From an uncultured Candidatus Peribacteria bacterium (GTDB lineage: Bacteria > Patescibacteriota > Gracilibacteria > Peribacterales > Peribacteraceae), in the NCBI GenBank assembly GCA_964423795.1, contig CAYRGC010000004.1:1032-65031 (forward strand): a DNA stretch of 64,000 nt, in the 5' to 3' direction. This document shows positions 1,761-47,927 of this stretch, in pieces. Numbering within the stretch: the first letter of the stretch is position 1; each line of letters opens with the position of its first letter. Position numbers and translations under genes: made by a program. The notes below the pieces were generated by a model. That model did no database searches, was not told the origin of the DNA, and saw only the letters and a list, made by a program, of their open reading frames with translations.

Positions 1761-1775
1761 CTCGTAACCCGTAAC
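1727..1775. repeat. foldback of heptamer repeats, GTTACGG family
   Basis: Arm 1 is GTTACGG GTTACGG GTTTCG, the loop is agactgt, and arm 2 is CCCGTAAC TCGTAAC CCGTAAC. It lies between the convergent small ORF and nth. Confidence 0.85.
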
Positions 1776-1786
1776 TGCAATCATTC

Positions 1787-5990: not shown

Positions 5991-6548
5991 TCAAGCCCGC
6001 TCGCGATACTCGCCGGTCTCCGTGTTCACCTTCACCTTGTCGCCTTCGTTGACGAAGAGCGGCACCTGCACGACGAGGCCGGTATCCATGGTGGCGGGCT
6101 TCGAGCCGCCGGTTGCGGTATCTCCCTTCACGCCCGGGATCGTCTCCTTCACGGTGAGGATCACGGTGGAAGGCAGCTTGATGGAGATGGGCTTCTCGCC
6201 GTACATGAGCGCGTCGCACTCCAGGCTTTCCGTGAGGAAACCGACGATGCCCTCGAGGGAATCGATCTGGATGGCGAACTGGTCGTAGGTCTCGAGGTCC
6301 ATGAACGTGCATGCCTCCTGGTCCTTGTAGAGGAACTGCACGTGGCGGTAGCCGACGTCCGCGGGCTCGATCTTCTCGGATCCCTGGAAGTTCCGGGCCA
6401 TGATCACGCCCGTCTGCAGGTTCTTGAGCTTGCACTGCATGTTCGCCTTGCTCTGGCTTTTGCGGCCGAACTGGGAGGCGAGGACGAGGTACGGCTCGCC
6501 GTCAATGGAGATGGCGCGGCCCGGCTTGAGATCGGTGATGGTGTACAT
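5991..6548 (-). CDS. efp: elongation factor P
   Basis: 185 aa from ATG 6548 (MYTITDLKPGRAISIDGEPYLV...). The length and layout are EF-P-like, and the C-terminus VPLFVNEGDKVKVNTETGEY is typical. The 261-aa track ORF is an upstream read-through. Confidence 0.9.
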   Translation of the reverse strand: MYTITDLKPGRAISIDGEPYLVLASQFGRKSQSKANMQCKLKNLQTGVIMARNFQGSEKIEPADVGYRHVQFLYKDQEACTFMDLETYDQFAIQIDSLEGIVGFLTESLECDALMYGEKPISIKLPSTVILTVKETIPGVKGDTATGGSKPATMDTGLVVQVPLFVNEGDKVKVNTETGEYRERA

Positions 6549-6627
6549 AGTCGTCGGAGAAAAAGTTGTCACCGGCCGATCCTGAGCCCGTCGAAGGACG
6601 GCTTGAGATCGGTGATGGTGTACATAG
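6522..6627. repeat. perfect 29-nt direct repeat duplicating the efp start region (period 77 nt)
   Basis: cggcttgagatcggtgatggtgtacatag occurs at 6522-6550 and again at 6599-6627. The second copy opens an 18-codon uORF (6569-6625, minus strand): MYTITDLKPSFDGLRIGR. Confidence 0.9.
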
Positions 6628-6662
6628 GGCGATAGTGTGGAGACGGGGCTAGAAGACGTCAA

Positions 6663-6743
6663 GACGAGGGAAGAAGAAAGGAAAGAGCTTGGAAAAGTCT
6701 GAAAGCTTCCCAGGCTCCTCAAGCTCTTTCTTCTTTCCTCGTC
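6663..6743 (-). terminator. long imperfect hairpin immediately after the anti-sigma gene stop
   Basis: Arm gacgagggaagaagaaaggaaagagcttg (6663-6691) pairs with caagctctttcttctttcctcgtc (6720-6743). Confidence 0.5.
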
Positions 6744-19756: not shown

Positions 19757-19809
19757 TGAGCTGTCATCGCGAGCGGAGTCGAGGGGCGAACCATGGCCGT
19801 GCACGTCGC
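19757..19809. repeat. GAGCG-type GC-rich mini-element plus 10-bp-stem hairpin
   Basis: tgtcatcgcgagcggagtcgaggggcg is about 80% identical to the reverse complement of 35925-35951. It is followed by the hairpin CGAGGGGCGA...TCGCCCCTCG. Confidence 0.7.
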
Positions 19810-19839
19810 CCCTCGTCAGGCTCGGGTGGCGCGCCGTTC

Positions 19840-29265: not shown

Positions 29266-29326
29266 GGTTTCGGGTTGCGGGTGTCGGGTTGCGAGAACCC
29301 CGCAACTCGCAACCCGTAACTCGCAA
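29266..29326. repeat. foldback of heptamers, GGTTGCG/GTTACGG family
   Basis: Arm 1 is GGTTTCG GGTTGCG GGTGTCG GGTTGCG, the loop is agaacc, and arm 2 is CCGCAAC TCGCAAC CCGTAAC TCGCAAC. It lies between the infC stop and rpmI. Confidence 0.85.
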
Positions 29327-31487: not shown

Positions 31488-31556
31488 GTTTTCTCCATAG
31501 TATAGCGGAAATCCTCGGGAAAAGGAAGGGTAGGAAGTACCTGTTTGAAGCCAGAG

Positions 31557-31670
31557 CTGAGGAGGTTTGAGGTGATGAGGTTATGAGCGCATGAGGTTTT
31601 GAGGTTCTGAGGTTTTGAGCTTCGATCTCTCAAGCTCAGAACGTCATACGCTTATAACCTCAGAACCTCT
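31557..31670. repeat. about 115-nt foldback of octamer repeats (GGTTNTGA family)
   Basis: Arm 1 is GGTTTGA GGTGATGA GGTTATGA GCGCATGA GGTTTTGA GGTTCTGA GGTTTTGA GCTT, the loop is cgatctctc, and arm 2 is AAGC TCAGAACG TCATACGC TTATAACC TCAGAACC TC. Confidence 0.85.
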
Positions 31671-31738: not shown

Positions 31739-32831
31739 GTGGAGGAACTGCTCCGCAAACTCACCGACCTGCAGTCCGCCGTCAATACGGGCAAGGACTC
31801 TCTTTGAGGGAAAGAAGATTCCAGAACAGATCAAAGACCTCGAAGCGCAAACCCAGGACCCGAACGTCTGGAGCGACCAGCAGAAGGCTCAGGGCCTTTT
31901 TTCCAAGCTGAAAGGCCTGAAGAAGCAATGGGAGCCGATCGCGGCGATGGCGCAGTCGGTGGCCGACACGATCGAGTTCGTGAAGATGGCCGGACCGAGC
32001 GATCTCCCGGGTCTGGAGAATGACGCGCTGAAGCTGGAGGAAGAATGGAAGGGTCTCGAGACGCAGCTCTACCTCGGCGGCGAATTCGACACGAACAACT
32101 GCTTCGTCACGATCTCCGGCGGAGCCGGCGGCACCGAGGCGCAGGACTGGGCCGCCATCCTCATGCGCATGTACCTGCGGTACTGCGAGCGCCAGGGATG
32201 GAAAACGACGCTCGTCGAAAAGACCGATGGCCAAGAGGCCGGCATCAAATCCGCGACGTTCCTCGTCGCGGGCGAGATGGCGTACGGCAACCTCAAGTGC
32301 GAGAAAGGCACGCACCGCCTGGTGCGCATCTCCCCCTTCGGGGCCAAGGCGCTGCGTCAAACCAGCTTCGCGCTCGTCGAAGTGCTGCCGGAAGTGACGG
32401 AGACCAAGGAGATCGAGATCAACCCCAACGATTTACGCATCGATACCTTCCGCTCCGGCGGCGCCGGCGGGCAGAACGTGAACAAGGTGGAGTCCGCCAT
32501 CCGCATCACGCACATCCCGACGAACATCGTCGTCGCGTGCCAGACGGAACGGTCGCAGCTCCAGAACCGCGCCCAGGCCATGAACATCCTCCGCGCCAAG
32601 CTCCTCGAGAAGAAGCGCGAGGAAGAACTGGCGCAGAAAAAAGAGCTGAAGGGCGCGTCGCAGAGCGCGGACTTCGGCCAGCAGATCAGGAGCTACGTGC
32701 TCCACCCCTACCAGATGGTGAAGGACCTCCGCACGAACGCGGAGACGGGAAACACGTCTGCCGTCCTCGACGGCGACCTGCAGCTCTTCATCGACGCGGA
32801 GCTGAAGCGGCAGGCCCGAGAAGGAGAATGA
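31739..32831 (+). CDS. prfB: peptide chain release factor 2, requires programmed +1 frameshift: join(31739..31804,31806..32831)
   Basis: Frame 0 runs GTG 31739 VEELLRKLTDLQSAVNTGKDSL then TGA (31805-31807). The +1 frame continues EGKKIPEQIKDLEAQTQDPNVWSDQQKAQ... into the 294-aa track ORF. The SPF (RISPFGA) and GGQ (GGAGGQNVNK) motifs are present. Confidence 0.9.
31793..31807 (+). promoter_or_regulatory. RF2 autoregulatory +1 frameshift site (CTT TGA G) with upstream AAGGA
   Basis: The sequence is aaggac tct CTT TGA ggg, which has the same CUU UGA slippery/stop arrangement as the canonical prfB site. Confidence 0.85.
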
Positions 32832-33480: not shown

Positions 33481-33571
33481 GGAGAGATGGCCGAGTGGTC
33501 GAAGGCGCACGACTCGAAATCGTGTAGACCCCCAAAGGGTCTCGAGGGTTCGAATCCCTCTCTCTCCGCCA
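33481..33571 (+). tRNA. tRNA-Ser (anticodon CGA), CCA encoded
   Basis: Acceptor stem GGAGAGA/TCTCTCC, anticodon stem CACGA/TCGTG with loop CU-CGA-AA, a long variable arm, T arm GAGGG-TTCGAAT-CCCTC, and discriminator G followed by CCA. Confidence 0.9.
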
Positions 33572-33731
33572 GAGAAAACATCGATGAACCAGACCAGCAG
33601 TATGAATATCCCTGAAAAGAGGGATGAGAAGTTTATGGTGAGCGAGCCTGCCGAAGCTGGCGAGACGAACCAAATCCCTCTCTCTCCGCCAGAAAAATTA
33701 GTGAGAACCCAAACCAGGACAATCAGTATCC
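33553..33731. repeat. duplication of the tRNA-Ser 3' end plus about 40 nt of flank (period 120 nt)
   Basis: aatccctctctctccgccaga occurs at 33553-33573 and again at 33673-33693. The following about 38 nt are about 70% identical by eye. A TGAGCGAG-type hairpin lies between the copies. Confidence 0.85.
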
Positions 33732-33841
33732 GGCAGGCCGGAGGCCTGCCCCAACAGTGGGGAGTGTTTGCCCTGATCAAAACTTGTACAGCAATAGTCC
33801 AGGTAGCTCTTCTGAAACTTGGGGCAGGCCTCCGGCCTGCC
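33730..33841. repeat. REP-spacer-REP composite, second copy
   Basis: ccggcaggccggaggcctgcccc lies at 33730-33752 and ggggcaggcctccggcctgcc lies at 33821-33841. The start of the spacer (gagtgtttgccctgatcaaaa) resembles the spacer at 21110-21135. Confidence 0.85.
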
Positions 33842-34824
33842 TAGAGAGGTAATTCTCCCGTCCTCTTCTCCGGTTCGACGTAGGGCACCTTGAGCATCTC
33901 GTAGATATCCTCCTCCTCGCGGCTGGCGATGACCTTCTCCCCGAGGAAGAGCCCGTACTCGCTCAGCTTCCAGCCGCGCGCGATGGCCTTCTTGCGGAGC
34001 GCGATGTTGTGCTCCTTGTCGCCCGTGAAGTAGAGCAGCGCGCTCCCCCACTGGTCGCGTGAGACGAAGCGGACATCGACGCGCATGACTTCGACCGGTC
34101 GGATGCCGTGGTCTTGGATCTTCAAATCGAACGAGAGCTTCTTCTCCCCGTGCGCCACGACGTCGCGGACGAAGGGAAGCGCAGCGATCGCGTCGCTGAC
34201 CTTCTTCGGGTCCTTCGTGACGACGAGGACGTCCAGGTCCCCGACCGTCGCCTTCTTCCGCCGGTACGAGCCCGCGATCGACGCGCGATCGACGCCGGGG
34301 ACCGCGCGGATGGTGTTCACCAGAATCTCCGTCTCCTTCTCCACCTGCTCGCGGTTGAACCGCCGCGAGCGCTCGCTCACGCGCTTGGCGCTCTCGAGGA
34401 TTTTCTTCTCCATCAGTTCCGAGAGCCGGGGCAGCGTCCGCAGCTTCCCCTCCTTCGCGGCCTTCACGAGATCGGCGATGGTCTTGATGCCGAGTTCCGT
34501 CTGCAGCTGGCGCACGCGCTTGGGGCCGAGGTTCTCGATCTCGAGGAGCTTCGGCGCGATGCCCCCCTGCGCGCCCGCGAGTTCCTCGAACGCCTTCACG
34601 CGGCCGGATTCCACGAATTCCTTCGCTTTCCCCGCGACGGCCTTGCCGATGCCGGGCAGCGCCAAAAGCTCCTTCTCCGCGTACGCGGACAGATCCTTCG
34701 GGAGTTCATCCACCACCTGCGCCGCGCGTCTGTACGCCGCGGGCTTGAAGGCGACGCCCTGCTCGTCCAAGAGCGCCGCCATCTGGCGGAGGATGTGGGC
34801 GAAGGAGGCGTTACGTCCGGTCAT
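33841..34824 (-). CDS. DNA polymerase family X (Pol beta-like), polymerase core only
   Basis: 327 aa from ATG 34824. It has HhH motifs (LLALPGIGKAVAGK; IENLGPKRVRQL) and a nucleotidyltransferase motif (GSYRRKKATVGDLDVLV). No PHP domain is present. Confidence 0.85.
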   Translation of the reverse strand: MTGRNASFAHILRQMAALLDEQGVAFKPAAYRRAAQVVDELPKDLSAYAEKELLALPGIGKAVAGKAKEFVESGRVKAFEELAGAQGGIAPKLLEIENLGPKRVRQLQTELGIKTIADLVKAAKEGKLRTLPRLSELMEKKILESAKRVSERSRRFNREQVEKETEILVNTIRAVPGVDRASIAGSYRRKKATVGDLDVLVVTKDPKKVSDAIAALPFVRDVVAHGEKKLSFDLKIQDHGIRPVEVMRVDVRFVSRDQWGSALLYFTGDKEHNIALRKKAIARGWKLSEYGLFLGEKVIASREEEDIYEMLKVPYVEPEKRTGELPL

Positions 34825-34888
34825 TCGGGGATGGTAGCACCTCCGACTTCGAGGAAGCCGTAGAAAAGATCTGTTTTCTAGAGTAATC

Positions 34889-34915
34889 CAGGCCGCGCAC
34901 GGGGCGCGGCCTGGA
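34889..34915. terminator. 11-bp perfect-stem hairpin bounding the low-GC islet
   Basis: ccaggccgcgc-acggg-gcgcggcctgg, 14 nt beyond the stop of ORF 34929-35135. Confidence 0.45.
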
Positions 34916-34928
34916 GTTACGTCAGGGC

Positions 34929-35135
34929 TTAGACTTTGCAAAGTCGGCGACGAGGCGGATTCTTTTGAGAGATGAGGAATTCGACAATTTCGTTCTGTGT
35001 CTTCGGTTCGACAGTCGACAACCTGGCTGCAAGAGCCTGATTGTCAAGAATCGCAGGACCGAGATTCTGAACGAAACCCCATTTCTTGAGAAGATGCCGC
35101 GCAGACGATGACTGTTGCACAGTAAGATGAAGCAT
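34929..35135 (-). CDS. small hypothetical protein (68 aa), low-GC islet
   Basis: The ATG is preceded by AGGAG with a 5-nt spacer. No homolog recognised. Confidence 0.35.
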   Translation of the reverse strand: MLHLTVQQSSSARHLLKKWGFVQNLGPAILDNQALAARLSTVEPKTQNEIVEFLISQKNPPRRRLCKV

Positions 35136-35924: not shown

Positions 35925-35951
35925 CATCCCTCACTACGCTCGGGATGACAA
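35925..35951. repeat. GAGCG-type GC-rich mini-element (reverse orientation)
   Basis: The reverse complement reads tgtcatcccgagcgtagtgagggatg, compared with tgtcatcgcgagcggagtcgaggggcg at 19757. Confidence 0.7.
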
Positions 35952-35954
35952 ACG

Positions 35955-36006
35955 GTAGCCGGGGTACGTGTTTCGACATGGCTCACCACAGGCGAACCCC
36001 GGCTAC
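35955..36006. repeat. P-family palindrome copy 3 with 30-nt loop insertion, just downstream of ahcY
   Basis: gtagccgggg ... ccccggctac. The arms match the palindromes at 27638 and 28588 (gcagccggggttcgc / gaaccccggctgc). Confidence 0.75.
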
Positions 36007-38272: not shown

Positions 38273-38311
38273 GGAGACAGTGTGGGAGGAAGCTTCCCCA
38301 AGCTCAAGCAA

Positions 38312-38399
38312 GTTTGTAGTTGGTAGTTTGTAGAAGTGGCAGTATCTGGAATTTTTAGGAGAACTTGTACTAAAAACTATCAACTAAACACTAAAAACT
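38312..38399. repeat. heptamer arrays GTTTGTA / ACTAAAA in divergent spacer
   Basis: gtttgta gttggta gtttgta g lies at 38312-38333 and tactaaa aactatc aactaaa cactaaa aactc lies at 38366-38399. Confidence 0.7.
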
Positions 38400-38437: not shown

Positions 38438-39820
38438 GTGAAAATCGCCATTGTTGGTACCGGCTACGTCGGCCTCGTCTCAGCGGCCTGCTTCGCGGAG
38501 CTGGGGCATACCGTCATCGGCGTGGACATCGACCCGAAGAAGATCGAGAAGCTCAAGAGGGGCGAAAGCACCATCTTCGAGCCGGGTCTCGAGGAGCTCA
38601 TCAAGAAGGGGCTCAAGACGAAGCTGCTGAGCTTCACGACCGACCTCGTCGAGGCGCTTCCCCAGGTGAGCGTGGTGTTCTCTGCGGTGGCGACCCCGCC
38701 GGGCGAGGGATTCAAGGCCGATCTCCGTGCGGTGTTCACCGTCGCGGAAACCGTGGCGAAGCACGCGGAGAAGCCGGTGGTCTTCGTGAATAAGTCCACG
38801 GTGCCCGTCGGCACGGGAAAGCAGTGCGAGGAGCGGATGGCCAAGATCCTCGCGGACCGGAAGAAGGACTTCTCGATCCCCGTCGTGAGCAACCCCGAGT
38901 TCCTGCGCGAGGGCCTCGCGGTGAATGACACTCTGATGCCGGATCGGATCGTCGTCGGGATAAATGAGACAGAAAGTCATCGGTCATCAGTCATGAGTCA
39001 TGGGGATGAAGATGCTCAAGACTCAAGACTCACGACTCACGACCCGCTCGATTCGAGAAAACTCATGCAAGACCTTTACGCTCCCATCACTCGCGTCGGG
39101 AAACCCCTCGTCTTCATGAGCCGCGAGAGCGCGGAGATCGTGAAGTACGCCAGCAACGCCTTCCTCGCGACGAAGATCAGCTTCATCAACATGCTCACGG
39201 AGTTCGCGGAGATCACGGGAGCCAACATCCGCGACGTCGCCCGCGGCATGGGCCTCGATAACCGCATCGGTCCGCGCTTTCTCCACGCCGGCATCGGCTA
39301 CGGCGGCAGCTGCTTCCCGAAGGACGTGAAGGCGCTCCTCGCGACCGCGAAGGATCACGGACTCAGCTTCGACATCGTGGAGGCCACCGATCGCATCAAC
39401 GCGCGCCAGCGCCAGCGTTTCTTCGAGAAGATCCTGAAGGCGCTCCCGAAAAAGGCCAAGGTCGCCGTGTGGGGGCTCTCCTTCAAGCCGAAAACCGACG
39501 ACATGCGCGAGGCGCCGAGCTTGGATCTGCTCCCGATGCTCGTCGACGCCGGGCACGCCGTGACGGCCTTCGACCCCGAGGCGATGACGGTGGCGCGGCC
39601 GCTCGTGCCCAAAGAGGTGGCGTTCGCCGAGTCCCCGATGGAGGCCGCCAAGGGCGCCGAAGCGCTCGTGCTCCTCACCGAGTGGGACGTCTTCCGCGGA
39701 GCGGACCTGGCAGAGCTCAAGGCGGCGATGAAGGGGGTCGACCTCTTCGACGGACGCAACGTGTATGAGCCGAAGGACGTGGAGAAGGCGGGGTTGAGGT
39801 ATCGGGGGATCGGGATCTAG
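38438..39820 (+). CDS. ugd: UDP-glucose 6-dehydrogenase (with about 26-aa repeat-encoded insertion)
   Basis: 460 aa with MKIAIVGTGYVGLV, GGSCFPKDV and other family motifs. The insertion is described under repeat 38976-39043. Confidence 0.9.
   Translation: MKIAIVGTGYVGLVSAACFAELGHTVIGVDIDPKKIEKLKRGESTIFEPGLEELIKKGLKTKLLSFTTDLVEALPQVSVVFSAVATPPGEGFKADLRAVFTVAETVAKHAEKPVVFVNKSTVPVGTGKQCEERMAKILADRKKDFSIPVVSNPEFLREGLAVNDTLMPDRIVVGINETESHRSSVMSHGDEDAQDSRLTTHDPLDSRKLMQDLYAPITRVGKPLVFMSRESAEIVKYASNAFLATKISFINMLTEFAEITGANIRDVARGMGLDNRIGPRFLHAGIGYGGSCFPKDVKALLATAKDHGLSFDIVEATDRINARQRQRFFEKILKALPKKAKVAVWGLSFKPKTDDMREAPSLDLLPMLVDAGHAVTAFDPEAMTVARPLVPKEVAFAESPMEAAKGAEALVLLTEWDVFRGADLAELKAAMKGVDLFDGRNVYEPKDVEKAGLRYRGIGI
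38976..39043. repeat. AGTC-family heptamer foldback inserted in-frame in ugd
   Basis: Arm 1 is GTCATCG GTCATCA GTCATGA GTCATGG, the loop is ggatgaagatg, and arm 2 is CTCAAGA CTCAAGA CTCACGA CTCACGAC. It encodes ..SHRSSVMSHGDEDAQDSRLTTHD.. Confidence 0.9.
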
Positions 39821-39879: not shown

Positions 39880-40248
39880 ATGCTTCATATGTCTTTTGAG
39901 AAGCTAAAGGTCTGGCAGAGAGCGATGCAACTTGTGACCTTCATCTACGAAATTACGGCGAAATTTCCTCGCGAAGAGATATATGGTCTCACGTCCCAGA
40001 TGCGAAGAGCAGCTGTGTCTGTTCCCTCGAATATTGCCGAGGGAAGTCAACGAACGTCAAATCGTGATTTTGCGAATTTCATCCTGATAGCCAAAGGATC
40101 ATTGGCAGAGCTTCAGACTCAAATCACTATTGCGAAGCAACAGTCATTTTTCGATGCGAAGGAATATGGAAAAATACGGGATGAAATGGAGGAAATAAGT
40201 AAGATGCTCTACGCTTTCCATCATCAATTACTCACTCACAAGTCTTGA
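39880..40248 (+). CDS. four-helix-bundle protein, 23S rRNA intervening-sequence protein family
   Basis: 122 aa with hallmarks FEKLKVWQRAMQL, EIYGLTSQMRRAAVSVPSNIAEG and F..IAKGSLAELQTQ. GC is visibly low. Confidence 0.85.
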   Translation: MLHMSFEKLKVWQRAMQLVTFIYEITAKFPREEIYGLTSQMRRAAVSVPSNIAEGSQRTSNRDFANFILIAKGSLAELQTQITIAKQQSFFDAKEYGKIRDEMEEISKMLYAFHHQLLTHKS

Positions 40249-40277
40249 CTGAAGACTCGTGACTTACGACTCACGAC
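40231..40277. repeat. right terminal inverted repeat of the four-helix-bundle cassette
   Basis: The reverse complement reads AGTCGTG AGTCGTA AGTCACG AGTCTTC AGTCAAG ACTTGTG. It ends 1 nt before the epimerase ATG. Confidence 0.85.
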
Positions 40278-40278
40278 T

Positions 40279-41226
40279 ATGAAGGTCTTCCTCACCGGCT
40301 GCGCCGGATTCATCGGGTTCCACACCGCGAACCGCCTGCTCGATCGCGGCGACGAAGTGGTGGGTCTCGACAACATGAGCCCCTACTACGACCCCAAGCT
40401 GAAGGAGGCGCGTCTCGCGATGCTCCAGAAGCGCAAGGGCTTCACCTTCACCAAGGGCGACATCCTCGACCGCAAGACGATCCGCGAGTGCATGCGCGGC
40501 TGCGACCGCGTGTGCCACCTCGCGGCGCTCGCCGGCGTGCGGTATTCGTTTGAGCATCCGGAGGAGTACATCGCGATCAACATCGACGGCTTCTTCGAGA
40601 TGATCGACGAGGCGAGGCTTCAGAAGATCCCCGGCTTCATCTACGCCTCCTCGAGTTCCGTCTACGGCGGCAACACGAAGTTCCCGCAGCACGAGGACGA
40701 CCGCACGGACGATCAAGTGTCGCTCTACGGACAGAACAAGAAGGACAACGAGCTCATGGCGCACATCTACCATAAGCTCTACGGAATCCCCGTCACGGGC
40801 CTGCGCTTCTTCACGGTCTACGGCCCGTGGGGCCGCCCGGACATGGCGCTCTTCCTCTTCACGGACGCGATCCTCAAGGACAAGCCCATCAAGGTCTTCG
40901 GCCACGGCAAGATGCAGCGCGACTTCACGTACGTGGACGACATCGTGTCCGGCGTGGTCGCGTCCATCGACAAGAACTACCCGGAGGAGATCTTCAACCT
41001 CGGCGCCGGCCACACGGAAGAGCTCCTGGATTACATCGGCATGATCGAGAAGACCGTCGGCAAGGAGGCCACGAAGGAATTGCTCCCCATGCAGCCCGGA
41101 GACACGGTCCGCAGCGAGCCGGACATCTCGAAGGCGAAGAAGATGCTCGGCTACGCCCCGAAAACGACGATCAAAGAAGGCGTCCCCAAGTTCGTGGAGT
41201 GGTATAGGGAATACCACGGTCTCTGA
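40279..41226 (+). CDS. NAD-dependent epimerase, UDP-glucuronate 4-epimerase-like
   Basis: 315 aa with VFLTGCAGFIGFH and YGQNKKDNE (YxxxK). The N-terminal pattern is typical of CapI/LpsL-type enzymes, and ugd is the neighbour. Confidence 0.8.
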   Translation: MKVFLTGCAGFIGFHTANRLLDRGDEVVGLDNMSPYYDPKLKEARLAMLQKRKGFTFTKGDILDRKTIRECMRGCDRVCHLAALAGVRYSFEHPEEYIAINIDGFFEMIDEARLQKIPGFIYASSSSVYGGNTKFPQHEDDRTDDQVSLYGQNKKDNELMAHIYHKLYGIPVTGLRFFTVYGPWGRPDMALFLFTDAILKDKPIKVFGHGKMQRDFTYVDDIVSGVVASIDKNYPEEIFNLGAGHTEELLDYIGMIEKTVGKEATKELLPMQPGDTVRSEPDISKAKKMLGYAPKTTIKEGVPKFVEWYREYHGL

Positions 41227-41385
41227 TAGGCCTGTCCTGAGCGAGGAGCGCCGCAGCGCGACGAGACGAAGGATGGAGTGCTATCGGGAATACCACGGAC
41301 TATAAGGGCTTGCCCTGAGCGAGTCAGCCGAGGCTGACGAGCCGAGGGGCATAGGGAATATCACGGCCTCTGAGAACGCCTTCCG
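41197..41385. repeat. three tandem copies of the epimerase 3' end separated by TGAGCGAG hairpin mini-elements
   Basis: Units start at 41197, 41274 and 41349. Each contains ..GGGAATA(C/T)CACGG..CT.T(G/A)A. Confidence 0.9.
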
Positions 41386-41411
41386 GACGATAAGAGTATT
41401 CTGCAACCACC

Positions 41412-41843
41412 ATGCTCTCCTCGACGATACGTCGCGGCGGATCCTCCTCGTTGGTCGCATGCGAGCGCTGCGAGGACGCACGTCGCCCCTGGGATCGCAT
41501 CGCGGACACCGCGGTTTGTCCGAACTGCATCGAAAACCTGATGGTGGGAATGAGTGATCACCTCCGATTCGCCGTGCAGGAGATCCGATGCACCCTTTGC
41601 GCGTCGCTCACTTCCGTCATGTTTCAATCGGTTCCCCGCCACTCTTTCTTACCGGTCAAGATTCCCCTCTGCGGAAACCACCTGCGCGCGCTCGCCTCCC
41701 GGGATCTGGACCCGGAATCGTACGGACTGCTGAAAAAGCAACTCGCGTACTTCGGTTTGTCCGTCGAAAACATCTTTCTGCTCCACGGCAATTTTTACGA
41801 CGCCAAAGGAAAGGCGCTGCAGCCTATCGTCGATCGGTACTGA
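41412..41843 (+). CDS. Cys-rich hypothetical protein (zinc-ribbon-like)
   Basis: 143 aa with CERC..x17..CPNC..x17..CTLC..x21..C. GC is lower, and no homolog is recognised. Confidence 0.45.
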   Translation: MLSSTIRRGGSSSLVACERCEDARRPWDRIADTAVCPNCIENLMVGMSDHLRFAVQEIRCTLCASLTSVMFQSVPRHSFLPVKIPLCGNHLRALASRDLDPESYGLLKKQLAYFGLSVENIFLLHGNFYDAKGKALQPIVDRY

Positions 41844-44444: not shown

Positions 44445-44557
44445 CAGACGCCAAAACCCAAATGCCAAGAAAATAGTAAAATCCAACCGCCAAGTTCGTT
44501 CTTTGGTCTTCCAGAGGTATTTTCTTCGTTTTTGGTTCCTGGTATTTGGAATTTTTC
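44445..44557. repeat. CCAAAAC / TTTGG heptamer arrays in divergent spacer
   Basis: gccaaaa cccaaat gccaaga aaa pairs with tttttgg ttcctgg tatttgg aattttt. This is the same family as 29921-29983. Confidence 0.75.
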
Positions 44558-44576
44558 TGCGATACCCTCCAATCGT

Positions 44577-45491
44577 ATGAGAATTTTGGTAACCGGCAGC
44601 TCCGGCACCATCGGTACCCGCCTCTGCGAGGAATTGATGAAGCGCGGCCACGACGTCACGGGCGTGGACTGGGTCACGAACAAGTGGAACGACGGCGTCC
44701 AGGCCGTCACCCGCAACGTGGATCTCCGGGACCGCGAGGCCCTCTCGAAGCTCGCGACGACGACGCAGTTCGAGGCGATCGTGCACCTCGCGGCCAACGC
44801 CCGCGTGTACGAGCTCGTCGAGAACCCGGACCGCGCGCTCGACAACATGATCACGACCTTCAACGTCCTCGAGTTCGCGCGCAGCCGCGGCATCACGCGC
44901 TTCCTGTTCGCTTCGTCGCGCGAGTCCTACGGCAACGCGGGCCAGCGCACGTACAAGGAGGACGCCGTGCGCGTCGAGAACTGCGAGAGTCCCTACACCG
45001 CGAGCAAGATCGCGGGCGAGGCGCTCGTGGAGGCCTACACCCGCTGCTACGGCATCGACCACGTCACCTTCCGGTTCAGCAACGTGTACGGCATGTACGA
45101 CGACTCCGTCCGCGTCGTCCCTCTCTTCATCCGCCAGGCGCGCAACGGCGAGCCGCTCAAGGTGTTCGGCGGGGAGAAGTGCCTCGACTTCACGTACATC
45201 GACGACTGCGTCGCGGGCATCATCCATGCGCTCGAGAAGTTCGACGAGGCGAAGAACGACACCTACAACCTCGCGTTCGGCGAGGGAACGACCATCCTGC
45301 ACCTCGCGGAGCGCATCAAGGAGATCCTCCGCAGCGATTCGGCCATCGACGTTGGCGAACCCCGGACCGGCGAGGTGGTGAAGTACATCGCGGACATCTC
45401 GAAGGCGCGCGAGAAACTCGGCTACAACCCCCAGATCGCGCTCGACGCCGGCATCGAGAAGGCCGTCGAGTGGTACACGAAGCACGCCTGA
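44577..45491 (+). CDS. NAD-dependent epimerase/dehydratase (SDR)
   Basis: 304 aa with MRILVTGSSGTIGTRL and the catalytic motif SPYTASKIAGE. Confidence 0.85.
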   Translation: MRILVTGSSGTIGTRLCEELMKRGHDVTGVDWVTNKWNDGVQAVTRNVDLRDREALSKLATTTQFEAIVHLAANARVYELVENPDRALDNMITTFNVLEFARSRGITRFLFASSRESYGNAGQRTYKEDAVRVENCESPYTASKIAGEALVEAYTRCYGIDHVTFRFSNVYGMYDDSVRVVPLFIRQARNGEPLKVFGGEKCLDFTYIDDCVAGIIHALEKFDEAKNDTYNLAFGEGTTILHLAERIKEILRSDSAIDVGEPRTGEVVKYIADISKAREKLGYNPQIALDAGIEKAVEWYTKHA

Positions 45492-45494
45492 GGC

Positions 45495-46799
45495 ATGGAT
45501 CCCTCGCTGCTCCTCCTCGCGGCCTTCGCCCTCCTCGCGGGCGGGCTGCAGTTCGGCAATCCGCCGGAGCCCTTCTGGTTGCCGCTCTTCTTCCTGCTGC
45601 CGAGCTTCGGCTGCGTCGTCGCCGCGTGCGCGGGCACGAGGCGCGGCAGGACGGGCGACCTTTCGGCGCGCTGGATGGCCGCCGCGCTCGTGGCGCTCCT
45701 CGCGATCTCCTACAAGCAGTACCCCGGCTTCTACGTGGAGGACATGGCGTACAACATGCGCGTGTTCGCGTGGACGAGCATCGCGATCGCCTACGCGCTC
45801 TTCCGGCTCGCGATGGGCGGAAGGATCGAGAGGGCGGAACGCATCGGCTTCTGGATCGTGCTCGGCGGGCTCGTCTTCCTGCGGGCGGGGATGATCTCCG
45901 CCTCGCCGAAGCCGTACATCGACGTCTTCAGCATGATCCAGCAGGGAGTGGAAAACCTCTTCCAGGGCCGCAATCCCTTCACCTATCCCATCCGGGACAT
46001 CTACAACGGCTCCTTCAGCTGGTGCTACGTGATGAAGGCGTACTCCTACACGCCCGCGAATCTCTATCCGCACGCGCTCGCCGTCTGGCTCGGCGGGGAC
46101 GCGCGCTTCGTCTCCGTCGCGGCGGACCTCTTCGCCTCGCTCCTGCTCTTCGACCTCGGGCGGCGCCTGCTCGACCGCTCCCGCGGCGAGCTCCTCGCCC
46201 TCCTCTTTCTCGCCCAGCCGCGCGCGCTCTTCCCCGTGGAACAGGCGTGGACGGAACCGCTCGTGGGCTGCGTCTTCGTCTTCTTCCTCTGGCTGTGGAC
46301 GCTCGGCTGGAAGAAGACCGCCATGGTCGCCTACGGCTACCTGGTCTCGCTCAAGCAGTACTGGGCCTTTCCGGGCCCGCTCGTGCTGATCCTCGAGCGT
46401 CGCTGGACGCGTCTGCTTCTCGCAGCCGTTTCGGCGGTCGCGACGACGGTGCCGTTCCTCCTCTGGGACGCGAAGACCGTGATCAGCGAAGGCTTCCTCA
46501 TGCAGCTCTCCGCGTGCTTCCGCGCCGGCACGCCCACGATGGCCGCCGTCTTCCACGCCGCGACCGGCATCGTGCCCCCGAAGCTCTGGATCCCGGTCTT
46601 GGGATTCGGCGCGTCGGGCGGCTTCGCGTGGTGGCTCAAGGATCTCGAGCCCATGAAGCGCTACGTGCTCTGCACGCTCGGGACCTTCTTTTCGCTCTTC
46701 CTTTTCGGCACCCAGGCGTTCCTCAACTACTACATGCTGGTAGGGACGCTGATGCTCGCGGCAATGATCCTAAGCGTGCAAGAACGCCATTCTGCGTAA
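45495..46799 (+). CDS. polytopic membrane protein, possible GT-C/DUF2029-like glycosyltransferase
   Basis: 434 aa with more than 10 hydrophobic segments. It sits 3 nt after the epimerase within a glycan locus. Confidence 0.5.
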   Translation: MDPSLLLLAAFALLAGGLQFGNPPEPFWLPLFFLLPSFGCVVAACAGTRRGRTGDLSARWMAAALVALLAISYKQYPGFYVEDMAYNMRVFAWTSIAIAYALFRLAMGGRIERAERIGFWIVLGGLVFLRAGMISASPKPYIDVFSMIQQGVENLFQGRNPFTYPIRDIYNGSFSWCYVMKAYSYTPANLYPHALAVWLGGDARFVSVAADLFASLLLFDLGRRLLDRSRGELLALLFLAQPRALFPVEQAWTEPLVGCVFVFFLWLWTLGWKKTAMVAYGYLVSLKQYWAFPGPLVLILERRWTRLLLAAVSAVATTVPFLLWDAKTVISEGFLMQLSACFRAGTPTMAAVFHAATGIVPPKLWIPVLGFGASGGFAWWLKDLEPMKRYVLCTLGTFFSLFLFGTQAFLNYYMLVGTLMLAAMILSVQERHSA

Positions 46800-46833
46800 T
46801 TGACAAATTTACATAAAAGTATACTTTGGTAAC

Positions 46834-46935
46834 ATGAAGGAACGTGCGGAGCCGCCTGCCGATTACGGCACGGCGATCCAGAAGATCATGGCCAGCAAGA
46901 AGCTGACGCCCGCCGAGGCGGCGTTGCTTCGGTAA
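46834..46935 (+). CDS. 33-aa small ORF upstream of the HExxH protein (not in ORF track)
   Basis: MKERAEPPADYGTAIQKIMASKKLTPAEAALLR. It ends 6 nt before ATG 46942 and follows an AT-rich stretch. Confidence 0.25.
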   Translation: MKERAEPPADYGTAIQKIMASKKLTPAEAALLR

Positions 46936-46941
46936 AACGGC

Positions 46942-47793
46942 ATGCCTGTCCTCGATAGCATGATCGAGGTCACGGCCGATGGCGTGAAGGACCTCCTGGC
47001 GAACGACGCCACTTTGGAATCACCCGAGAACAGGACGGACCGGAAAATCGCCGAGATCGAAACCGAGATGTCGTTCTTCGAAACCCAGGTAGCTCCTCTC
47101 CTTCAGACAGCCGATCCTGCCCGGCGCGTCGCCATCACGAATCCGTTCCATTTCCTCAACGCGAACAAAGGCAATACGCTGAAGAACTTCGAAACGGCGT
47201 CCCGCGTCGCCTTGACCCAAGGCATGCCCGTGGAATCGATCCTACTGGCTCTCAACGATCCGCGGCATTACGGCTACCGTCTCATACCGGATTCAGCGCT
47301 CAGGGGCACGGGAATCATGATCGGCACGATCCCGATCCAGCGCTCCGTGGGGATATCGGAGAAATACGATTTCAAGAACACGCTGAACCGCCTAACGATG
47401 GTCCACGAGCTCGTGCACCTGGCGCATCAGGCGCTGCAGAGGAAAAAGAATATGATGGAATTCCTTCGATTCCACGCAAGCGGACGGAAGCACGTGATCA
47501 TCGACGAAGAATACGACGCGTACGTCGTGGAGATCGAAACCCTTGATCTGCTCCTGGGCGGCGAATTGCGGGAAGGTAAGGCTCGCCCGGAAGACATCTT
47601 GAAGCGCTTCTCCCTTCCAGAGGATCATCGCACGCCGATCACGATGCTATGCATGATGGCCGAGCGGTATTTCCCCGTCGGCCGCGTCGACGCACCGTAC
47701 CCGAAAGCATACACGACCTTTGTCGACCGCGCGGTGGCGCATGACGGATATGAACTGCGGCGATACGGACAGCCTGGGGTCCCGCGACCGTAG
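46942..47793 (+). CDS. hypothetical protein with HExxH motif (putative zincin-like metallopeptidase)
   Basis: 283 aa with LTMVHELVHLAHQ and a downstream acidic segment IIDEEYDAYVVE. GC is lower, and no family is recognised. Confidence 0.5.
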   Translation: MPVLDSMIEVTADGVKDLLANDATLESPENRTDRKIAEIETEMSFFETQVAPLLQTADPARRVAITNPFHFLNANKGNTLKNFETASRVALTQGMPVESILLALNDPRHYGYRLIPDSALRGTGIMIGTIPIQRSVGISEKYDFKNTLNRLTMVHELVHLAHQALQRKKNMMEFLRFHASGRKHVIIDEEYDAYVVEIETLDLLLGGELREGKARPEDILKRFSLPEDHRTPITMLCMMAERYFPVGRVDAPYPKAYTTFVDRAVAHDGYELRRYGQPGVPRP

Positions 47794-47803
47794 GTTAAGC
47801 AAC

Positions 47804-47927
47804 CGATTTCTTCTTCTCCTCGTGATACTCCCCCTTCGAGATTCACCCGGCTTCGCTCGGCGGAGCTTCGCCAAGGTGAGACTCAGGACGATTTTTTCTC
47901 CTCGTGATATTCGCCTTCCAGATTCAC
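47804..47927. repeat. duplication of the FAD-oxidoreductase 3' end around a GC-rich mini-element
   Basis: cgatttcttcttctcctcgtgatactcccccttcgagattcac lies at 47804-47846. cgattttttctcctcgtgatattcgccttccagattcac lies at 47889-47927. Confidence 0.85.

What the first reader, a model, noticed from the sequence alone, without database searches (positions are those of the whole stretch)
41197..41385. Epimerase 3' end present three times in tandem, each copy still encoding ..REYHGL-stop, separated by TGAGCGAG-type GC-rich hairpins
Seen:
- Copy 1 (the real gene end) is gag tgg tat agg gaa tac cac ggt ctc tga, encoding EWYREYHGL*.
- Copy 2 (41274) is gag tgc tat cgg gaa tac cac gga cta taa, encoding ECYREYHGL*.
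- Copy 3 (41349) is ggg cat agg gaa tat cac ggc ctc tga, encoding GHREYHGL*.
- Most differences are synonymous: agg/cgg, tac/tat, ggt/gga/ggc, ctc/cta, tga/taa.
- Between the copies lie two related elements. One is cctgtcCTGAGCGAGgagcgccgcagcgcgacGAGACGAAGGat. The other is cttgccCTGAGCGAGtcagccgaggctgaCGAGCCGAGGGGc.
- Each element has a conserved TGAGCGAG box, an internal 6-bp hairpin, a CGAG.CGA box and complementary ends.

The same architecture of gene end, small GC-rich hairpin and displaced copy of the gene end recurs at efp (6522-6627), tRNA-Ser (33553-33731) and the FAD oxidoreductase (47804-47927).

Established knowledge: integrative elements that target gene 3' ends carry a replacement copy of the target end. 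Because that copy evolved under selection elsewhere, it differs mainly synonymously.

Inference: these are either scars of repeated integration and excision at gene ends, or a previously undescribed mini insertion element of about 45-50 bp. Such an element would generate or carry 25-40-bp target duplications and so preserve the interrupted gene.
Basis: partly seen in the sequence, partly recalled or inferred. Interest (0 to 1): 0.75.

Follow-up and report, generated by a model that had tools for sequence, protein, structure and literature searches.

The report
Tiny hairpin element duplicating gene ends
The epimerase gene end is tripled because two copies of a 25-45-base hairpin repeat, with the same core as the "Bpu" repeats of cycad mitochondria, sit there, each flanked by an unusually long copy of the target that keeps the gene intact.

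Summary
The last about 30 nt of the epimerase gene occur three times, separated by two 41-43 nt elements. The same layout occurs at tRNA-Ser and an amine-oxidase 3' end, and at the efp START, not its end.

The separators belong to a high-copy hairpin family, about 9-10 copies in 64 kb. The fold is an outer stem, tandem G.A pairs (UGAG/CGAA), two G-C pairs and a small loop or variable apical hairpin. The core CCTGAGC-GNA-G(T)CGAAGG matches the 36-bp Bpu elements of Cycas and Ginkgo mitochondria. It is abundant in phage and bacterial contigs, absent from Rfam, and I found no paper describing it in bacteria.

In Candidatus Peribacteria these elements are often flanked by 16-60 nt direct repeats spanning a gene terminus. 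The element's 3' end always abuts the gene-distal copy.

A sister genome has empty efp and oxidase sites and an orthologue of the first epimerase insertion, so this is not an assembly artefact.

Best explanation (about 0.55): trans-mobilised insertion with long, variable target duplication. No recombinase lies in the window and the mechanism is inferred. The "element carries a foreign gene end" idea is only weakly supported.

The parts
40279..41226 (+). NAD-dependent sugar epimerase gene (315 aa); its last 30 nt are copy 1
   Evidence: ORF and translation; 256 relatives in genomes, the best named Candidatus Peribacteria
41197..41226 (+). Copy 1: the functional gene end, EWYREYHGL plus stop TGA (41224-41226)
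   Evidence: D2 reference copy
41230..41272 (+). Element E1, long form: gcctgtcCTGAGCGAG-apical hairpin-GAGACGAAGG
   Evidence: Sequence; RNA fold with two 2x2 G.A loops. An orthologous insert sits at the same place in sister genome L001, aligned at both ends.
41274..41305 (+). Copy 2: displaced gene end (ECYREYHGL, stop TAA), a decaying pseudo-end
   Evidence: The orthologue in L001 has decayed at all codon positions and now supplies the ATG of the downstream gene.
41308..41348 (+). Element E2, long form: gcttgccCTGAGCGAG-tcagcc gag gctga-CGAGCCGAGGG
   Evidence: RNA fold -21.3 kcal/mol, z -2.3, same architecture as E1 with an unrelated apical hairpin; absent from L001
41350..41373 (+). Copy 3: second displaced gene end (HREYHGL, stop TGA)
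33553..33611 (+). tRNA-Ser(CGA) 3' end plus trailer: the proximal copy of a 59-nt direct repeat (the tRNA is 33481-33571)
   Evidence: (D3). The tRNA part is 19/19 identical and the trailer 26/40.
33637..33671 (+). Element E3, long form: ggTGAGCGAG-cctgcc gaa gctggc-GAGACGAAcc
   Evidence: same fold architecture
33673..33731 (+). Displaced copy of the tRNA-Ser 3' end plus trailer
   Evidence: Relative L003 has no duplication at this tRNA.
6522..6550 (-). efp start region: the proximal (functional) copy, 29 nt including the ATG at 6548-6546
   Evidence: D5, 29/29 identical
6551..6598 (+). Inserted 48 nt at efp: a 30-nt variable 5' part (6551-6580) plus the short-form core CCTGAGCCCGTCGAAGG (6581-6597) plus A (6598). 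The element is antisense to efp.
   Evidence: covariance-model hit 6574-6600, 31.8 bits. Sister genome L281 has the empty site.
6599..6627 (-). Displaced upstream copy of the efp start, next to the native promoter. It opens an 18-codon upstream ORF that ends in the inserted DNA.
   Evidence: A homologous insertion and upstream ORF occur in L282.
47795..47846 (-). Displaced 3' end of the amine-oxidase gene (..VNLEG[frameshift]EYHEEKKKSVA, stop)
   Evidence: It matches the sister allele at all five synonymous sites where the functional copy differs.
47847..47887 (-). Element at the oxidase end, a long-form variant: CCTGAGTCTCACC-hairpin-GAGCGAAGCCGG. Its CCTGAG supplies the gene's present stop codon (TGA, 47885-47883).
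47888..47927 (-). Functional 3' end of the amine-oxidase gene (proximal copy), truncated by about 8 nt and completed by element sequence
   Evidence: (D14)
35925..35994 (-). Two further copies without a flanking duplication. One (35967-35994) lies in the loop of a 10-bp hairpin. The other is the variant GTCATCCCGAGCGTAGTGAGGGATGA (35925-35951).
19761..19832 (.). Inverted doublet of variant copies (CGCGAGCGGAGTCGAGGGG and its reverse-complement partner)

Best explanation
The tripled epimerase end records two separate insertions of a miniature, non-autonomous hairpin element at the same hotspot.

Shown:
- The family is an interspersed repeat with a conserved fold.
- Occupied and empty orthologous sites exist.
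- The flanks are direct repeats of the target.
- The element's 3' junction is precise, while its 5' side is variable.
- E1 with copy 2 predates the split from the sister genome. E2 with copy 3 is seen only in this lineage.
- The displaced copy 2 is a decaying pseudo-end; its orthologue in the sister genome has decayed at all codon positions.
- Each flanking duplication here is about 25-37 nt and includes the stop codon, so the gene stays intact.

Inferred mechanism:
- The element is mobilised in trans and enters with a fixed polarity.
- Its 3' end (..CGAAGG) joins directly 5' of a GT(G)-type target. That target resembles the element's own right arm GGGTGAC and is complementary to its left arm GTCAC.
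- The second strand is broken 16-60 nt away, and repair synthesis duplicates the interval.
- In a gene-dense genome only insertions whose duplicated interval spans a gene terminus survive. This explains the location at gene ends and starts, and why the gene body always lies on the element's 5' side.
- A precise 3' end, a ragged 5' end and variable duplication length fit a 3'-end-primed copy-in, either retroposon-like or single-strand DNA-based. The enzyme is unknown.
For: Family and fold:
- The core recurs in Peribacteria loci and about 9-10 times in this window.
- Three flank pairs change on both sides in 8-12 of 25 copies.
- E1, E2 and E3 share one fold with unrelated apical hairpins.

Insertion polarity:
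- In 812 kb, 11 of 19 short-range direct repeats enclose the core. In every direct-repeat case read, the distal copy starts 0-3 nt after ..GAAGG, while the proximal copy lies 0-47 nt from the core.

Empty sites:
- efp in L281, L284 and L289; oxidase in L290 and L291; epimerase in L002, L003 and most relatives; tRNA-Ser in L003.

Duplication made in place:
- The two efp copies are 29/29 identical, and both differ from the sister allele at three synonymous sites.
- Repeats are 17/17 in L031, 18/19 in L032 and 16/16 in L202.

Not an artefact:
- E1 with copy 2 is present in the independently assembled sister genome.
- The same architecture is in L022, L034, L036 and L207/L019.

Hotspot and targeting:
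- Element-bearing lineages are scattered on the epimerase tree.
- 6 of 11 sites start with GT against a background of 0.05 (P=7e-6).
- The gene body lies on the 5' side at all 7 distinct gene-terminus sites.

Precedents and context:
- No mobility gene is in the window, so action must be in trans.
- IS1549/IS1634 make 8-514 bp variable duplications (PMC2266710).
- Bpu elements with the same core are regarded as mobile (PMC8297867).
Against: - No enzyme has been identified and no transposition intermediate seen.
- Differences between proximal and displaced copies are enriched at third codon positions (39 of 62). About 44% is expected if displaced copies decay neutrally (P=0.002).
- All six displaced epimerase ends read keep an in-frame stop.
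- The displaced oxidase copy is closer to the sister allele (2 of 36 differences) than the functional copy is (7 of 36, P about 0.02).
- The efp insertions in the window and in L282 share about 70% identical 5' parts at the same site, while closer relatives are empty. This needs either two precise losses or horizontal spread.
- Across other bacteria and phages most copies of the core show no flanking duplication. The long duplication is therefore not a general property of the motif.
- Copy 1 is closer to copy 3 than copy 2 is to either, which fits neither simple order of insertion.
Confidence: 0.55

Rival explanations
1. Gene-end cassette, or integrative mini-element. The mobile unit would be [donor gene terminus + short spacer + hairpin]. 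The hairpin would act as a folded recombination site, like an integron attC or a Xer-type site. Crossover at its 3' boundary (GG|GT) with the same GT site in the orthologous gene of a recipient would put the donor's gene end in frame and displace the recipient's own end. The two copies would then be alleles from two lineages.
For: - Excess of third-position differences (39 of 62).
- All six displaced epimerase ends read keep a stop at the same codon.
- The tRNA part is 19/19 identical against 26/40 for the trailer.
- The displaced oxidase copy resembles the sister allele.
- The efp copies of L282 differ at four sites, all third positions.
- Repeat boundaries coincide with gene termini: 0-4 nt past the stop, 0-3 nt before the ATG, and exactly at CCA in L202.
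- The same site is occupied in scattered lineages by related long-form elements.
- The crossover-like junction is precise.
Against: - The window efp copies are identical to each other and unlike the sister allele, while the adjoining 30 nt is unrelated to the native upstream region.
- The sister's displaced epimerase copy decays at all codon positions.
- The conservation of the upstream efp copy has a simpler cause: it is the transcript's 5' end, next to the native promoter.
- A 60-120 bp double-stranded circle is physically implausible.
- No tyrosine or serine recombinase is in the window.
- The sequence does not match the attC R and L boxes.
Confidence: 0.2
2. Local duplication without a mobile element. 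A stable hairpin just beyond a gene terminus stalls replication. The nascent strand re-anneals upstream at microhomology and re-copies the gene end, giving tandem [gene end + hairpin] units.
For: - The epimerase array reads as 2.4 units of a 75-79 nt period.
- Microhomology (GG/GTG) is seen at the junctions.
- GCGNAGC-type mini-hairpins are extraordinarily stable in DNA (PMC13037366 abstract).
Against: - Slippage would duplicate the hairpin too. Single events (efp, tRNA-Ser, oxidase, L031, L032) have one element between two target copies.
- Empty sites in relatives lack the hairpin altogether.
- E1 and E2 have unrelated apical hairpins.
- The same core is dispersed at many unrelated loci and taxa.
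Confidence: 0.07
3. The hairpins are primarily functional RNA or DNA structures retained by selection. Candidates are a protein-binding tandem-G.A motif, an mRNA 3' stabiliser, or a leader or upstream-ORF module for efp. On this view their spread and the duplications are secondary.
For: - One strand-specific fold is conserved, with covariation.
- An 18-19 codon upstream ORF with a conserved CGGTGA stop lies upstream of efp in two lineages.
- A reversed variant directly follows tRNA-Ser CCA in three distant lineages.
- The element supplies stop codons for two genes.
Against: - Orientation relative to transcription is inconsistent: sense at 3' ends, antisense at 5' ends, and both in doublets.
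- Presence is patchy among close relatives.
- Copies also lie inside coding regions (L004, L005/L009).
- There is no U-tract, so these are not intrinsic terminators.
- No Rfam family matches.
- Function would not explain the flanking duplications.
Confidence: 0.08
4. Assembly artefact: the tandem copies arise from mis-joined reads of strain variants.
For: The window comes from a metagenome-type assembly. E2 with copy 3 has no independent confirmation.
Against: - The three copies and two elements all differ from one another.
- E1 with copy 2 is present in an independent assembly of a different species-level genome.
- Analogous structures occur in at least 6 other independent assemblies.
Confidence: 0.02

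Closest known systems
Bpu sequences/elements of Cycas and Ginkgo mitochondria (Chaw et al. 2008, as summarised in PMC8297867)
   Same: - The core is identical. The Cycas consensus is AAGGTTATCCCTTTCCTGAGCGTAGCGAAGGGAAGG.
- The Ginkgo variant ..CCCGAGCGTAGCGGAGGG.. is matched by Peribacteria variants such as CCCGAGCGTAGCGAGGGA (L202) and CCCGAGCGTAGTGAGGGA (window 35925-35951).
- Both are short (about 30-36 nt), high-copy and interspersed, are regarded as mobile, and have direct repeats at the ends.
   Different: - Bpu elements are described only from plant mitochondria, with 4-nt terminal repeats (AAGG).
- Here the host is a CPR bacterium. The flanking repeats are 16-60 nt and span gene termini. 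Long forms carry an extra hairpin in the loop.
- The commonest bacterial form has an extra bulged T (GTCGAAGG).
- I could not read the original 2008 paper.
REP / REPIN elements (repetitive extragenic palindromes mobilised by RAYT transposases)
   Same: - Both are 20-40 nt imperfect hairpins, present in many copies, mostly at gene ends.
- They are often paired in inverted doublets (window 19761-19832; L004, L042, L053, L056, L058).
- Both are non-autonomous.
   Different: - REPs make no target duplication and carry a 5' GTAG-type tetranucleotide.
- No RAYT gene is seen here, although only 64 kb could be checked.
- These elements also sit inside ORFs and overlap gene termini.
IS1549 / IS1634 (IS1634 family)
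   Same: They generate long target duplications of variable length, 8-514 bp, with no accepted mechanism (PMC2266710).
   Different: Those are 1.5-2 kb autonomous insertion sequences with a DDE transposase and terminal inverted repeats. The element here is 25-45 nt with no gene.
Integrative elements that replace a gene terminus (tRNA-gene islands; e14 in icd) and integron attC cassettes
   Same: - Each leaves a displaced, still recognisable copy of a gene or tRNA end beside the inserted DNA.
- attC sites are folded hairpins with a conserved base, extrahelical bases and a variable apical part, and recombine at a precise point on their 3' side.
- This comparison rests on my own knowledge of these systems.
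   Different: - No integrase gene, attI site or attC R/L boxes are present.
- The inserted DNA here is only 40-50 nt.
- At efp the duplication was made in place rather than imported.
Non-LTR retroposons (SINE/LINE target-primed insertion)
   Same: They have a precise 3' end, a variable or extended 5' end, and target duplications of variable length flanking the insert. This comparison rests on my own knowledge.
   Different: There is no poly(A) or known partner reverse transcriptase. No bacterial example of this kind is known. Resemblance is in anatomy only.
Rickettsia palindromic elements
   Same: They are small hairpin repeats that can lie in frame inside protein-coding genes. Compare L004/L056 (about 72 nt doublet), L005/L009 and L057.
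   Different: The sequences are unrelated, and no long target duplications are reported. This comparison rests on my own knowledge.

Membership tests
Bpu-like short interspersed elements | Conserved core containing the Bpu10I site: CCTGAGC-GTA-GCGAAGG (Ginkgo: CCCGAGCGTAGCGGAGG) | tested here: met
   - Short-form cores are CCTGAGC-N2-4-G(T)CGAAGG.
- Variants CCCGAGCGTAGCGAGGGA and CCCGAGCGTAGTGAGGGA are present.
- E1 and E2 keep CCTGAGC...CGA(A/G)GG with a hairpin inserted in the loop.
- The published consensus is quoted in PMC8297867.
Bpu-like short interspersed elements | Short (about 36 bp), many dispersed copies per genome | tested here: met
   About 9-10 copies in 64 kb; 38 model hits in 647 kb of relatives.
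Bpu-like short interspersed elements | Two 4-nt terminal direct repeats (AAGG) | tested here: not met
   The flanking repeats here are 16-60 nt copies of the local target, different at each site. Most copies in other bacteria show none.
Bpu-like short interspersed elements | Common descent with the mitochondrial elements | not testable with these tools
   A 17-20 nt core is too short for phylogeny, and convergence on a very stable hairpin cannot be excluded.
REP / REPIN | Imperfect palindrome forming a hairpin, high copy, mainly extragenic, inverted doublets | tested here: met
   Fold and covariation; doublets. However, some copies lie inside ORFs.
REP / REPIN | Cognate RAYT (Y1 HUH) transposase gene flanked by REPs | tested here: inconclusive
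   None among about 50 window ORFs, and no recurrent neighbour gene in 120 loci. The rest of the genome is not available.
REP / REPIN | Insertion without target duplication | tested here: not met
   Long flanking direct repeats at 11 of 19 short-range repeats in Peribacteria.
MITE (miniature inverted-repeat transposable element) | Terminal inverted repeats derived from a parent IS, and a target duplication of fixed length | tested here: not met
   Only 3-5 bp of the ends pair. The left flank GCYTGYCC has no inverted partner. Duplication length varies from 16 to 60 nt.
Integron cassette / attC | R''/L''...L'/R' boxes (RYYYAAC...GTTRRRY), an adjacent intI and attI, and cassette arrays | tested here: not met
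   The sequence differs, and no integrase is in the window.
Integrative element with gene-end replacement | Integrase gene and attL/attR around an element body; the displaced copy is an allele that evolved under selection elsewhere | tested here: inconclusive
   There is no integrase and the body is only 40-50 nt. Codon-structured differences are seen. Against this, the efp duplication was made in place, and the displaced epimerase copy decays neutrally in the sister genome.
CRISPR array | Near-identical repeats, unrelated spacers, cas genes | tested here: not met
   The repeats are 83-87% alike and are a gene end. The 'spacers' are related to each other. No cas genes are present.
Diversity-generating retroelement (a bAvd-like gene lies at 39880-40248) | Template/variable repeat pair differing at adenines, and a reverse transcriptase | tested here: not met
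   The differences between copies are not adenine-specific, and no reverse transcriptase is in the window.
Known structured RNA (Rfam), including hammerhead and other ribozymes | Match to a curated covariance model | tested here: not met
   No hit at E<=10 in 41100-41500. The only gathering-level hit in the window is the tRNA, and there are none in 11 other loci carrying the core.

The most novel reading that the evidence does not exclude
The hairpin could be the smallest known mobile element of bacteria, about 25 nt. The same family would then span CPR bacteria, many other bacteria, their phages and gymnosperm mitochondria.

It would move by a mechanism not yet described. Its 5' arm would pair with a GTGAC-like target. 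Its 3' end would be joined there, possibly as folded single-stranded DNA or through an RNA copy. A distant second break would then give 16-60 nt duplications that rebuild gene ends, donate stop codons and create upstream ORFs. Alternatively, it would act as an attC-like site that shuttles gene-terminus cassettes between lineages.
Probability: 0.2. Interest if true: 0.85.

Novelty: new variant of a known kind. Interest (0 to 1): 0.62.

Why it matters
If the reading is right, three things follow.

1. A repeat known only as a curiosity of cycad and ginkgo mitochondria belongs to a very widespread bacterial and phage hairpin family. That family has escaped both Rfam and, as far as I could search, the literature.
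2. In streamlined CPR genomes this family inserts into gene termini without killing the genes, because it is flanked by unusually long target copies. In doing so it rewrites C-termini, donates stop codons, creates an upstream ORF before efp, and in the sister genome supplies a start codon for the downstream gene.
3. The precise 3' junction, the GT-type target and the variable duplication length point to a mobilisation chemistry with no identified enzyme. Phylogenetic profiling could now search for it.

Practically, these elements produce spurious ORF extensions and 'hypothetical' peptides. They also create gene-end pseudo-copies that annotation pipelines and assemblers should recognise.

Tried and rejected
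- **Rfam**: searched the region, the whole window and 11 other loci. Only the tRNA was found. By eye, hammerhead, K-turn and C/D-box readings fail. CUGAGC has one base too many for CUGANGA, and the internal loops are symmetric.
- **Tandem Repeats Finder**: did not report the 75-79 nt period, because the units are too diverged.
- **Anchored duplication search**: a first search required the proximal copy within 12 nt of the core. It missed known cases and was replaced by unanchored searches.
- **Associated gene**: clustering ORFs within 250 nt of the core in 120 phage and bacterial loci gave no recurrent family. Pfam on about 50 window ORFs found no recombinase, transposase, reverse transcriptase, HUH, GIY-YIG or Cas protein.
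- **Source of the efp 5' part**: looked for the variable 5' part of the efp insert elsewhere and found no other copy.
- **Exact-protein look-ups** for the window's EF-P and epimerase found nothing. Relatives were reached through homologues instead.
- **Metagenome scan** for epimerase relatives gave nothing closer than 77% identity.
- **Literature**: searches on Peribacteria repeats, CPR MITEs, tandem-GA repeats and REPs in Patescibacteria were negative. The Cycas paper of 2008 is not held.
- **Rejected readings**: CRISPR-like mini-array, DGR template/variable pair, intrinsic terminator, integron.
- **GC3 drift**: considered directional GC3 drift as the cause of the synonymous bias and rejected it, because the changes go both ways.
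Full report
**1. What is in the sequence**

The epimerase ORF (40279-41226, +) ends gag tgg tat agg gaa tac cac ggt ctc tga. Two further copies of this end follow, at 41274-41305 and 41350-41373. The repeat finder groups the three, at 83% and 87% identity to the first.

Between them lie two related elements:
- 41230-41272: gcctgtcCTGAGCGAG-gagcgccgcagcgcgac-GAGACGAAGG.
- 41308-41348: gcttgccCTGAGCGAG-tcagccgaggctga-CGAGCCGAGGG.

- tRNA-Ser(CGA) 3' end plus trailer: 59 nt, 76% identical.
- The 3' end of an amine oxidase on the minus strand.
- efp. Here the duplicated 29 nt (100% identical) are the START of the minus-strand gene, not an end.

Chance is excluded. Flanking-repeat scores are 19-29, against a 99th-percentile control of 11.

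**2. Organism and setting**

The closest epimerase relatives are MAGs of Candidatus Peribacteria (Peregrinibacteria, CPR), with L001 at 93% amino-acid identity. The window is 63.7% G+C with GC3 near 0.9.

Pfam annotation of about 50 ORFs shows housekeeping and polysaccharide-synthesis genes. There is no integrase, transposase, reverse transcriptase, HUH enzyme or Cas protein. The only DNA-related genes are a PolX (33841-34941, -), a HhH-GPD glycosylase, and a 23S-rRNA-IVS/bAvd-like gene (39880-40248) just upstream of the epimerase.

**3. The separators are members of a repeat family**

A shorter form, (xyz)TGAGC-N2-4-G(T)CGAA(z'y'x'), recurs throughout Peribacteria loci. The three flanking pairs covary (CG, GC, UA, AU): 8-12 of 25 copies change on both sides. 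The covariation score is 0.477 against 0.200 in shuffles. One caveat applies: the seeds were chosen for pairing at those three positions.

The inferred fold is a stem, U-A, tandem sheared G.A/A.G, G-C, C-G (often with a bulged U), and a 3-4 nt loop that is frequently GNA.

The long form of the finding is the same base with a second tandem-G.A step (CGAG/CGAG) and an apical hairpin in the loop. E1, E2 and the tRNA-Ser element give exactly this RNA minimum-energy architecture with unrelated apical sequences. Z-scores are only -1.1 to -2.3, and folding is weaker with DNA parameters.

A covariance model of the short form, together with reading, gives about 9-10 copies in the 64-kb window. These include an inverted doublet at 19761-19832 and two copies at 35925-35994. 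The model finds 38 hits in 647 kb of relatives.

**4. The family is not confined to CPR and is partly known**

- The variant CCTGAGCGNAGCGAAGG did the same, with consensus TGTCAT-core-ATCT.
- No Rfam family matches.
- A sequence search of the literature found one paper. The 36-bp 'Bpu' short interspersed elements of Cycas mitochondria number about 500 copies, with consensus AAGGTTATCCCTTTCCTGAGCGTAGCGAAGGGAAGG. They have terminal AAGG direct repeats and are regarded as mobile. The Ginkgo variant is ..CCCGAGCGTAGCGGAGGG.. (PMC8297867).
- Peribacteria carry both core types.
- I found no paper linking Bpu elements to bacteria.

**5. Anatomy of the duplications**

An unbiased search for short-range direct repeats in 812 kb of Peribacteria sequence gave 19 repeats, 11 of which enclose the core. 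Reading these and the other cases gives the following rules.

a) The gene-distal copy begins 0-3 nt after the element's 3' end (..GAAGG|). The proximal copy is separated from the core by 0-47 nt.

b) Lengths range from 16 to about 60 nt.

c) The repeats always span a gene terminus:
- 3' ends of the epimerase (window, L022, L034, L036, L207/L019), the oxidase and tRNA-Ser (window, L202).
- 5' starts of efp (window, L282), the epimerase (L032/L213/L214) and two other genes (L031, L025).

d) The gene body is always on the element's 5' (CTGAG) side. The element is sense at 3' ends and antisense at 5' ends. This holds at 7 distinct sites and about 14 lineage events.

e) The distal copy starts with GT in 6 of 11 sites, against a background of 0.05 (P=7e-6): GTGGAG, GTGAGG, GTGACC, GTGAAT and others. 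This resembles the right arm GGGTGAC of the fully palindromic copies and is complementary to the left arm GTCAC.

f) The element can supply the stop codon. The oxidase and the L034 epimerase both end at the TGA inside CCTGAG.

Elsewhere in bacteria and phages, most copies of the core have no detectable flanking repeat.

**6. Polarity from relatives**

*efp.* The sister genome (L281, the L001 genome; EF-P 97%) has the uninterrupted site: TTGACG-N17-cACACT-atcgccct-ATG. The window therefore gained 48 nt plus a 29-nt duplicate. Both window copies are identical to each other and differ from the sister at three synonymous positions, so the duplicate was made in place.

L282 (the L002 genome; 89%) has a homologous insertion at the same site, with its 5' part about 70% identical to the window's. 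There the upstream copy is 26/27 identical to the window copies, while the functional copy differs at four third positions. The upstream copy sits at the native promoter and opens an 18-19 codon upstream ORF ending at a conserved CGGTGA. Its conservation is probably functional.

*Oxidase.* The sister (L290) and L291 are empty. The window's displaced copy matches the sister at all five synonymous sites where the functional copy differs: 2/36 against 7/36 differences (P about 0.02). Genome-wide identity is about 80%.

*Epimerase.* L002, L003 and most of about 70 relatives are empty. Element-bearing lineages are scattered on the tree.

L001 carries an 85-nt insert that aligns with E1 at both ends, followed by a decayed copy 2 (differences 5/1/3 by codon position). 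That decayed copy now provides the ATG of the downstream gene. L001 lacks E2 and copy 3.

So E1 with copy 2 is older than the window/L001 split. E2 with copy 3 was either gained later or lost in L001. Similarities among the three copies (1-3: 3 differences; 1-2: 4; 2-3: 6 of 24) do not settle the order.

*tRNA-Ser.* L003 is empty. L292, L036 and L202 carry a reversed variant directly after CCA, without duplication.

**7. Are the displaced copies 'alleles'?**

Over all pairs, 62 nucleotide differences fall 13/10/39 by codon position. This gives P=2e-6 against one third. It gives P=0.002 against the 44% I estimate if the functional copy drifts synonymously and the displaced copy decays neutrally. 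Without the L282 efp pair, P=0.009.

All six displaced epimerase ends read keep a stop at the same codon. The tRNA part of the displaced tRNA-Ser copy is 19/19 identical, against 26/40 for the trailer (P about 0.03).

These signals are real but modest, and the alignments were hand-curated. They are opposed by the in-place efp duplication and by the neutral decay seen in L001. I therefore keep a donor-allele (cassette) model as the main rival, not the lead.

**8. Best explanation**

The epimerase array reflects two insertions of a trans-mobilised, Bpu-like hairpin element at one hotspot, each with a long target duplication.

The mechanism is inferred. Entry is polar, with the 3' end joined 5' of a GT(G)AC-like target. 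A second break falls 16-60 nt away, followed by fill-in. In a gene-dense genome, only events whose duplicated interval spans a gene terminus survive. This also accounts for the orientation rule, because the G+C-rich target motif lies inside genes.

The precise 3' end, ragged 5' end and variable duplication length resemble target-primed (retroposon-like) or single-strand insertion.

IS1549/IS1634 are the known bacterial precedent for variable 8-514 bp duplications, so far without a mechanistic model (PMC2266710).

Confidence that this is insertion with duplication in place is about 0.55. Confidence in the particular chemistry is much lower.

**9. Rivals**

| Rival | Confidence |
|---|---|
| Gene-end cassette / attC-like recombination | 0.2 |
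| Hairpin-induced slippage. Contradicted by single elements between two target copies and by empty sites lacking the hairpin. | 0.07 |
| Primarily functional RNA/DNA motif. Does not explain the duplications, and orientation is inconsistent. | 0.08 |
| Assembly artefact. Contradicted by independent assemblies. | 0.02 |

**10. Verdict**

'Undescribed' and 'carries a foreign replacement copy' need revision.

Novelty: a new variant of a known kind. It is a Bpu/REP-like hairpin repeat, here in CPR bacteria, with long gene-terminus duplications and no known mobiliser.

Noticed in passing
window 1727-1776, 22350-22487, 29266-29328, 38311-38399, 38975-39043, 40246-40272; also L007, L008, L018, L029, L045, L201 downstream of the epimerase: Intergenic hairpins whose two arms are each a short tandem array of a heptamer or similar unit (for example GTTACGG x2.4 ... 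CGTAACT x3). They sit where terminators would be, and the unit sequence differs at every locus and lineage.
   Followed up: no
window 39880-40248 (+): A 122-aa 23S-rRNA-intervening-sequence protein (PF05635, weaker bAvd-like match) lies between the UDP-glucose dehydrogenase and the epimerase. Most relatives have the two genes adjacent. L033 and L041 have such a gene here, and the sister genome has another copy next to gatB. It looks like a small mobile gene.
   Followed up: partly
window 6599-6545 (- strand); L282 about 2900-3000: The displaced efp start opens an 18-19 codon upstream ORF (MYTITDLKP plus element-encoded residues). It ends at a conserved CGGTGA about 24 nt before the real ATG, and is present in two lineages. 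It may be a translational leader for efp.
   Followed up: partly
window 47883-47885; L034 about 1012-1016: Two genes (the amine oxidase here and the epimerase in L034) now terminate at the TGA inside the element's conserved CCTGAG. The element has therefore rewritten their C-termini.
   Followed up: yes
L001 4033-4060: In the sister genome the decayed displaced epimerase end (..aaacatcATGgaatc..) supplies the start codon of the downstream Cys-rich gene.
   Followed up: partly
L004 5558-5626 (same in L056, L267); L042 1027-1093 (same in L216); L005 about 4914 / L009 about 4938; L057 777-804: Copies or inverted doublets of the element appear to lie inside protein-coding regions, such as the about 72-nt doublet in L004 and a pfkB-like gene in L057. 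They would be translated as extra peptide segments. Reading frames were not checked rigorously.
   Followed up: no
upstream of many Peribacteria genes, e.g. window 6628-6665 (- strand), L024, L027, L029, L039, L040 epimerase starts: A TTGAC..-N17-(C)TAcAaT/TAGAAT-like promoter ends only about 6-10 nt before the ATG at many genes. This suggests leaderless or near-leaderless mRNAs in this lineage.
   Followed up: no
L292 3730-3760, L036 about 95-140, L202 5070-5040 (- strand): A reversed variant of the element (TCCGGCTTCG-hairpin-CTACGCCGCGA) directly follows the CCA end of tRNA-Ser(CGA) in three distant lineages, with no duplication.
   Followed up: partly
L100, L114, L133, L140, L144, L166, L171, L176 (IMG/VR contigs): Nested and tandem arrangements occur. 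A full core can sit inside the loop of another core, and the 3' half AGCGGAGTCGAAGGA can be tandemly repeated 3-4 times.
   Followed up: no
window 31554-31622: A tandem array of an 8-nt unit (GAGGTTAT, 7.4 copies; or a 16-nt unit, 4.4 copies) lies in an intergenic stretch upstream of the peptide-chain release factor gene (31947-32831; PCRF and RF-1 domains).
   Followed up: no
window 44500-47800 vs L290 11693-15258: The region between the oxidase and the glycosyltransferase differs in gene content between the window and the sister genome. Identity drops to 74-77% and part is unalignable. The oxidase-end insertion therefore sits at the edge of a variable polysaccharide-gene segment.
   Followed up: no
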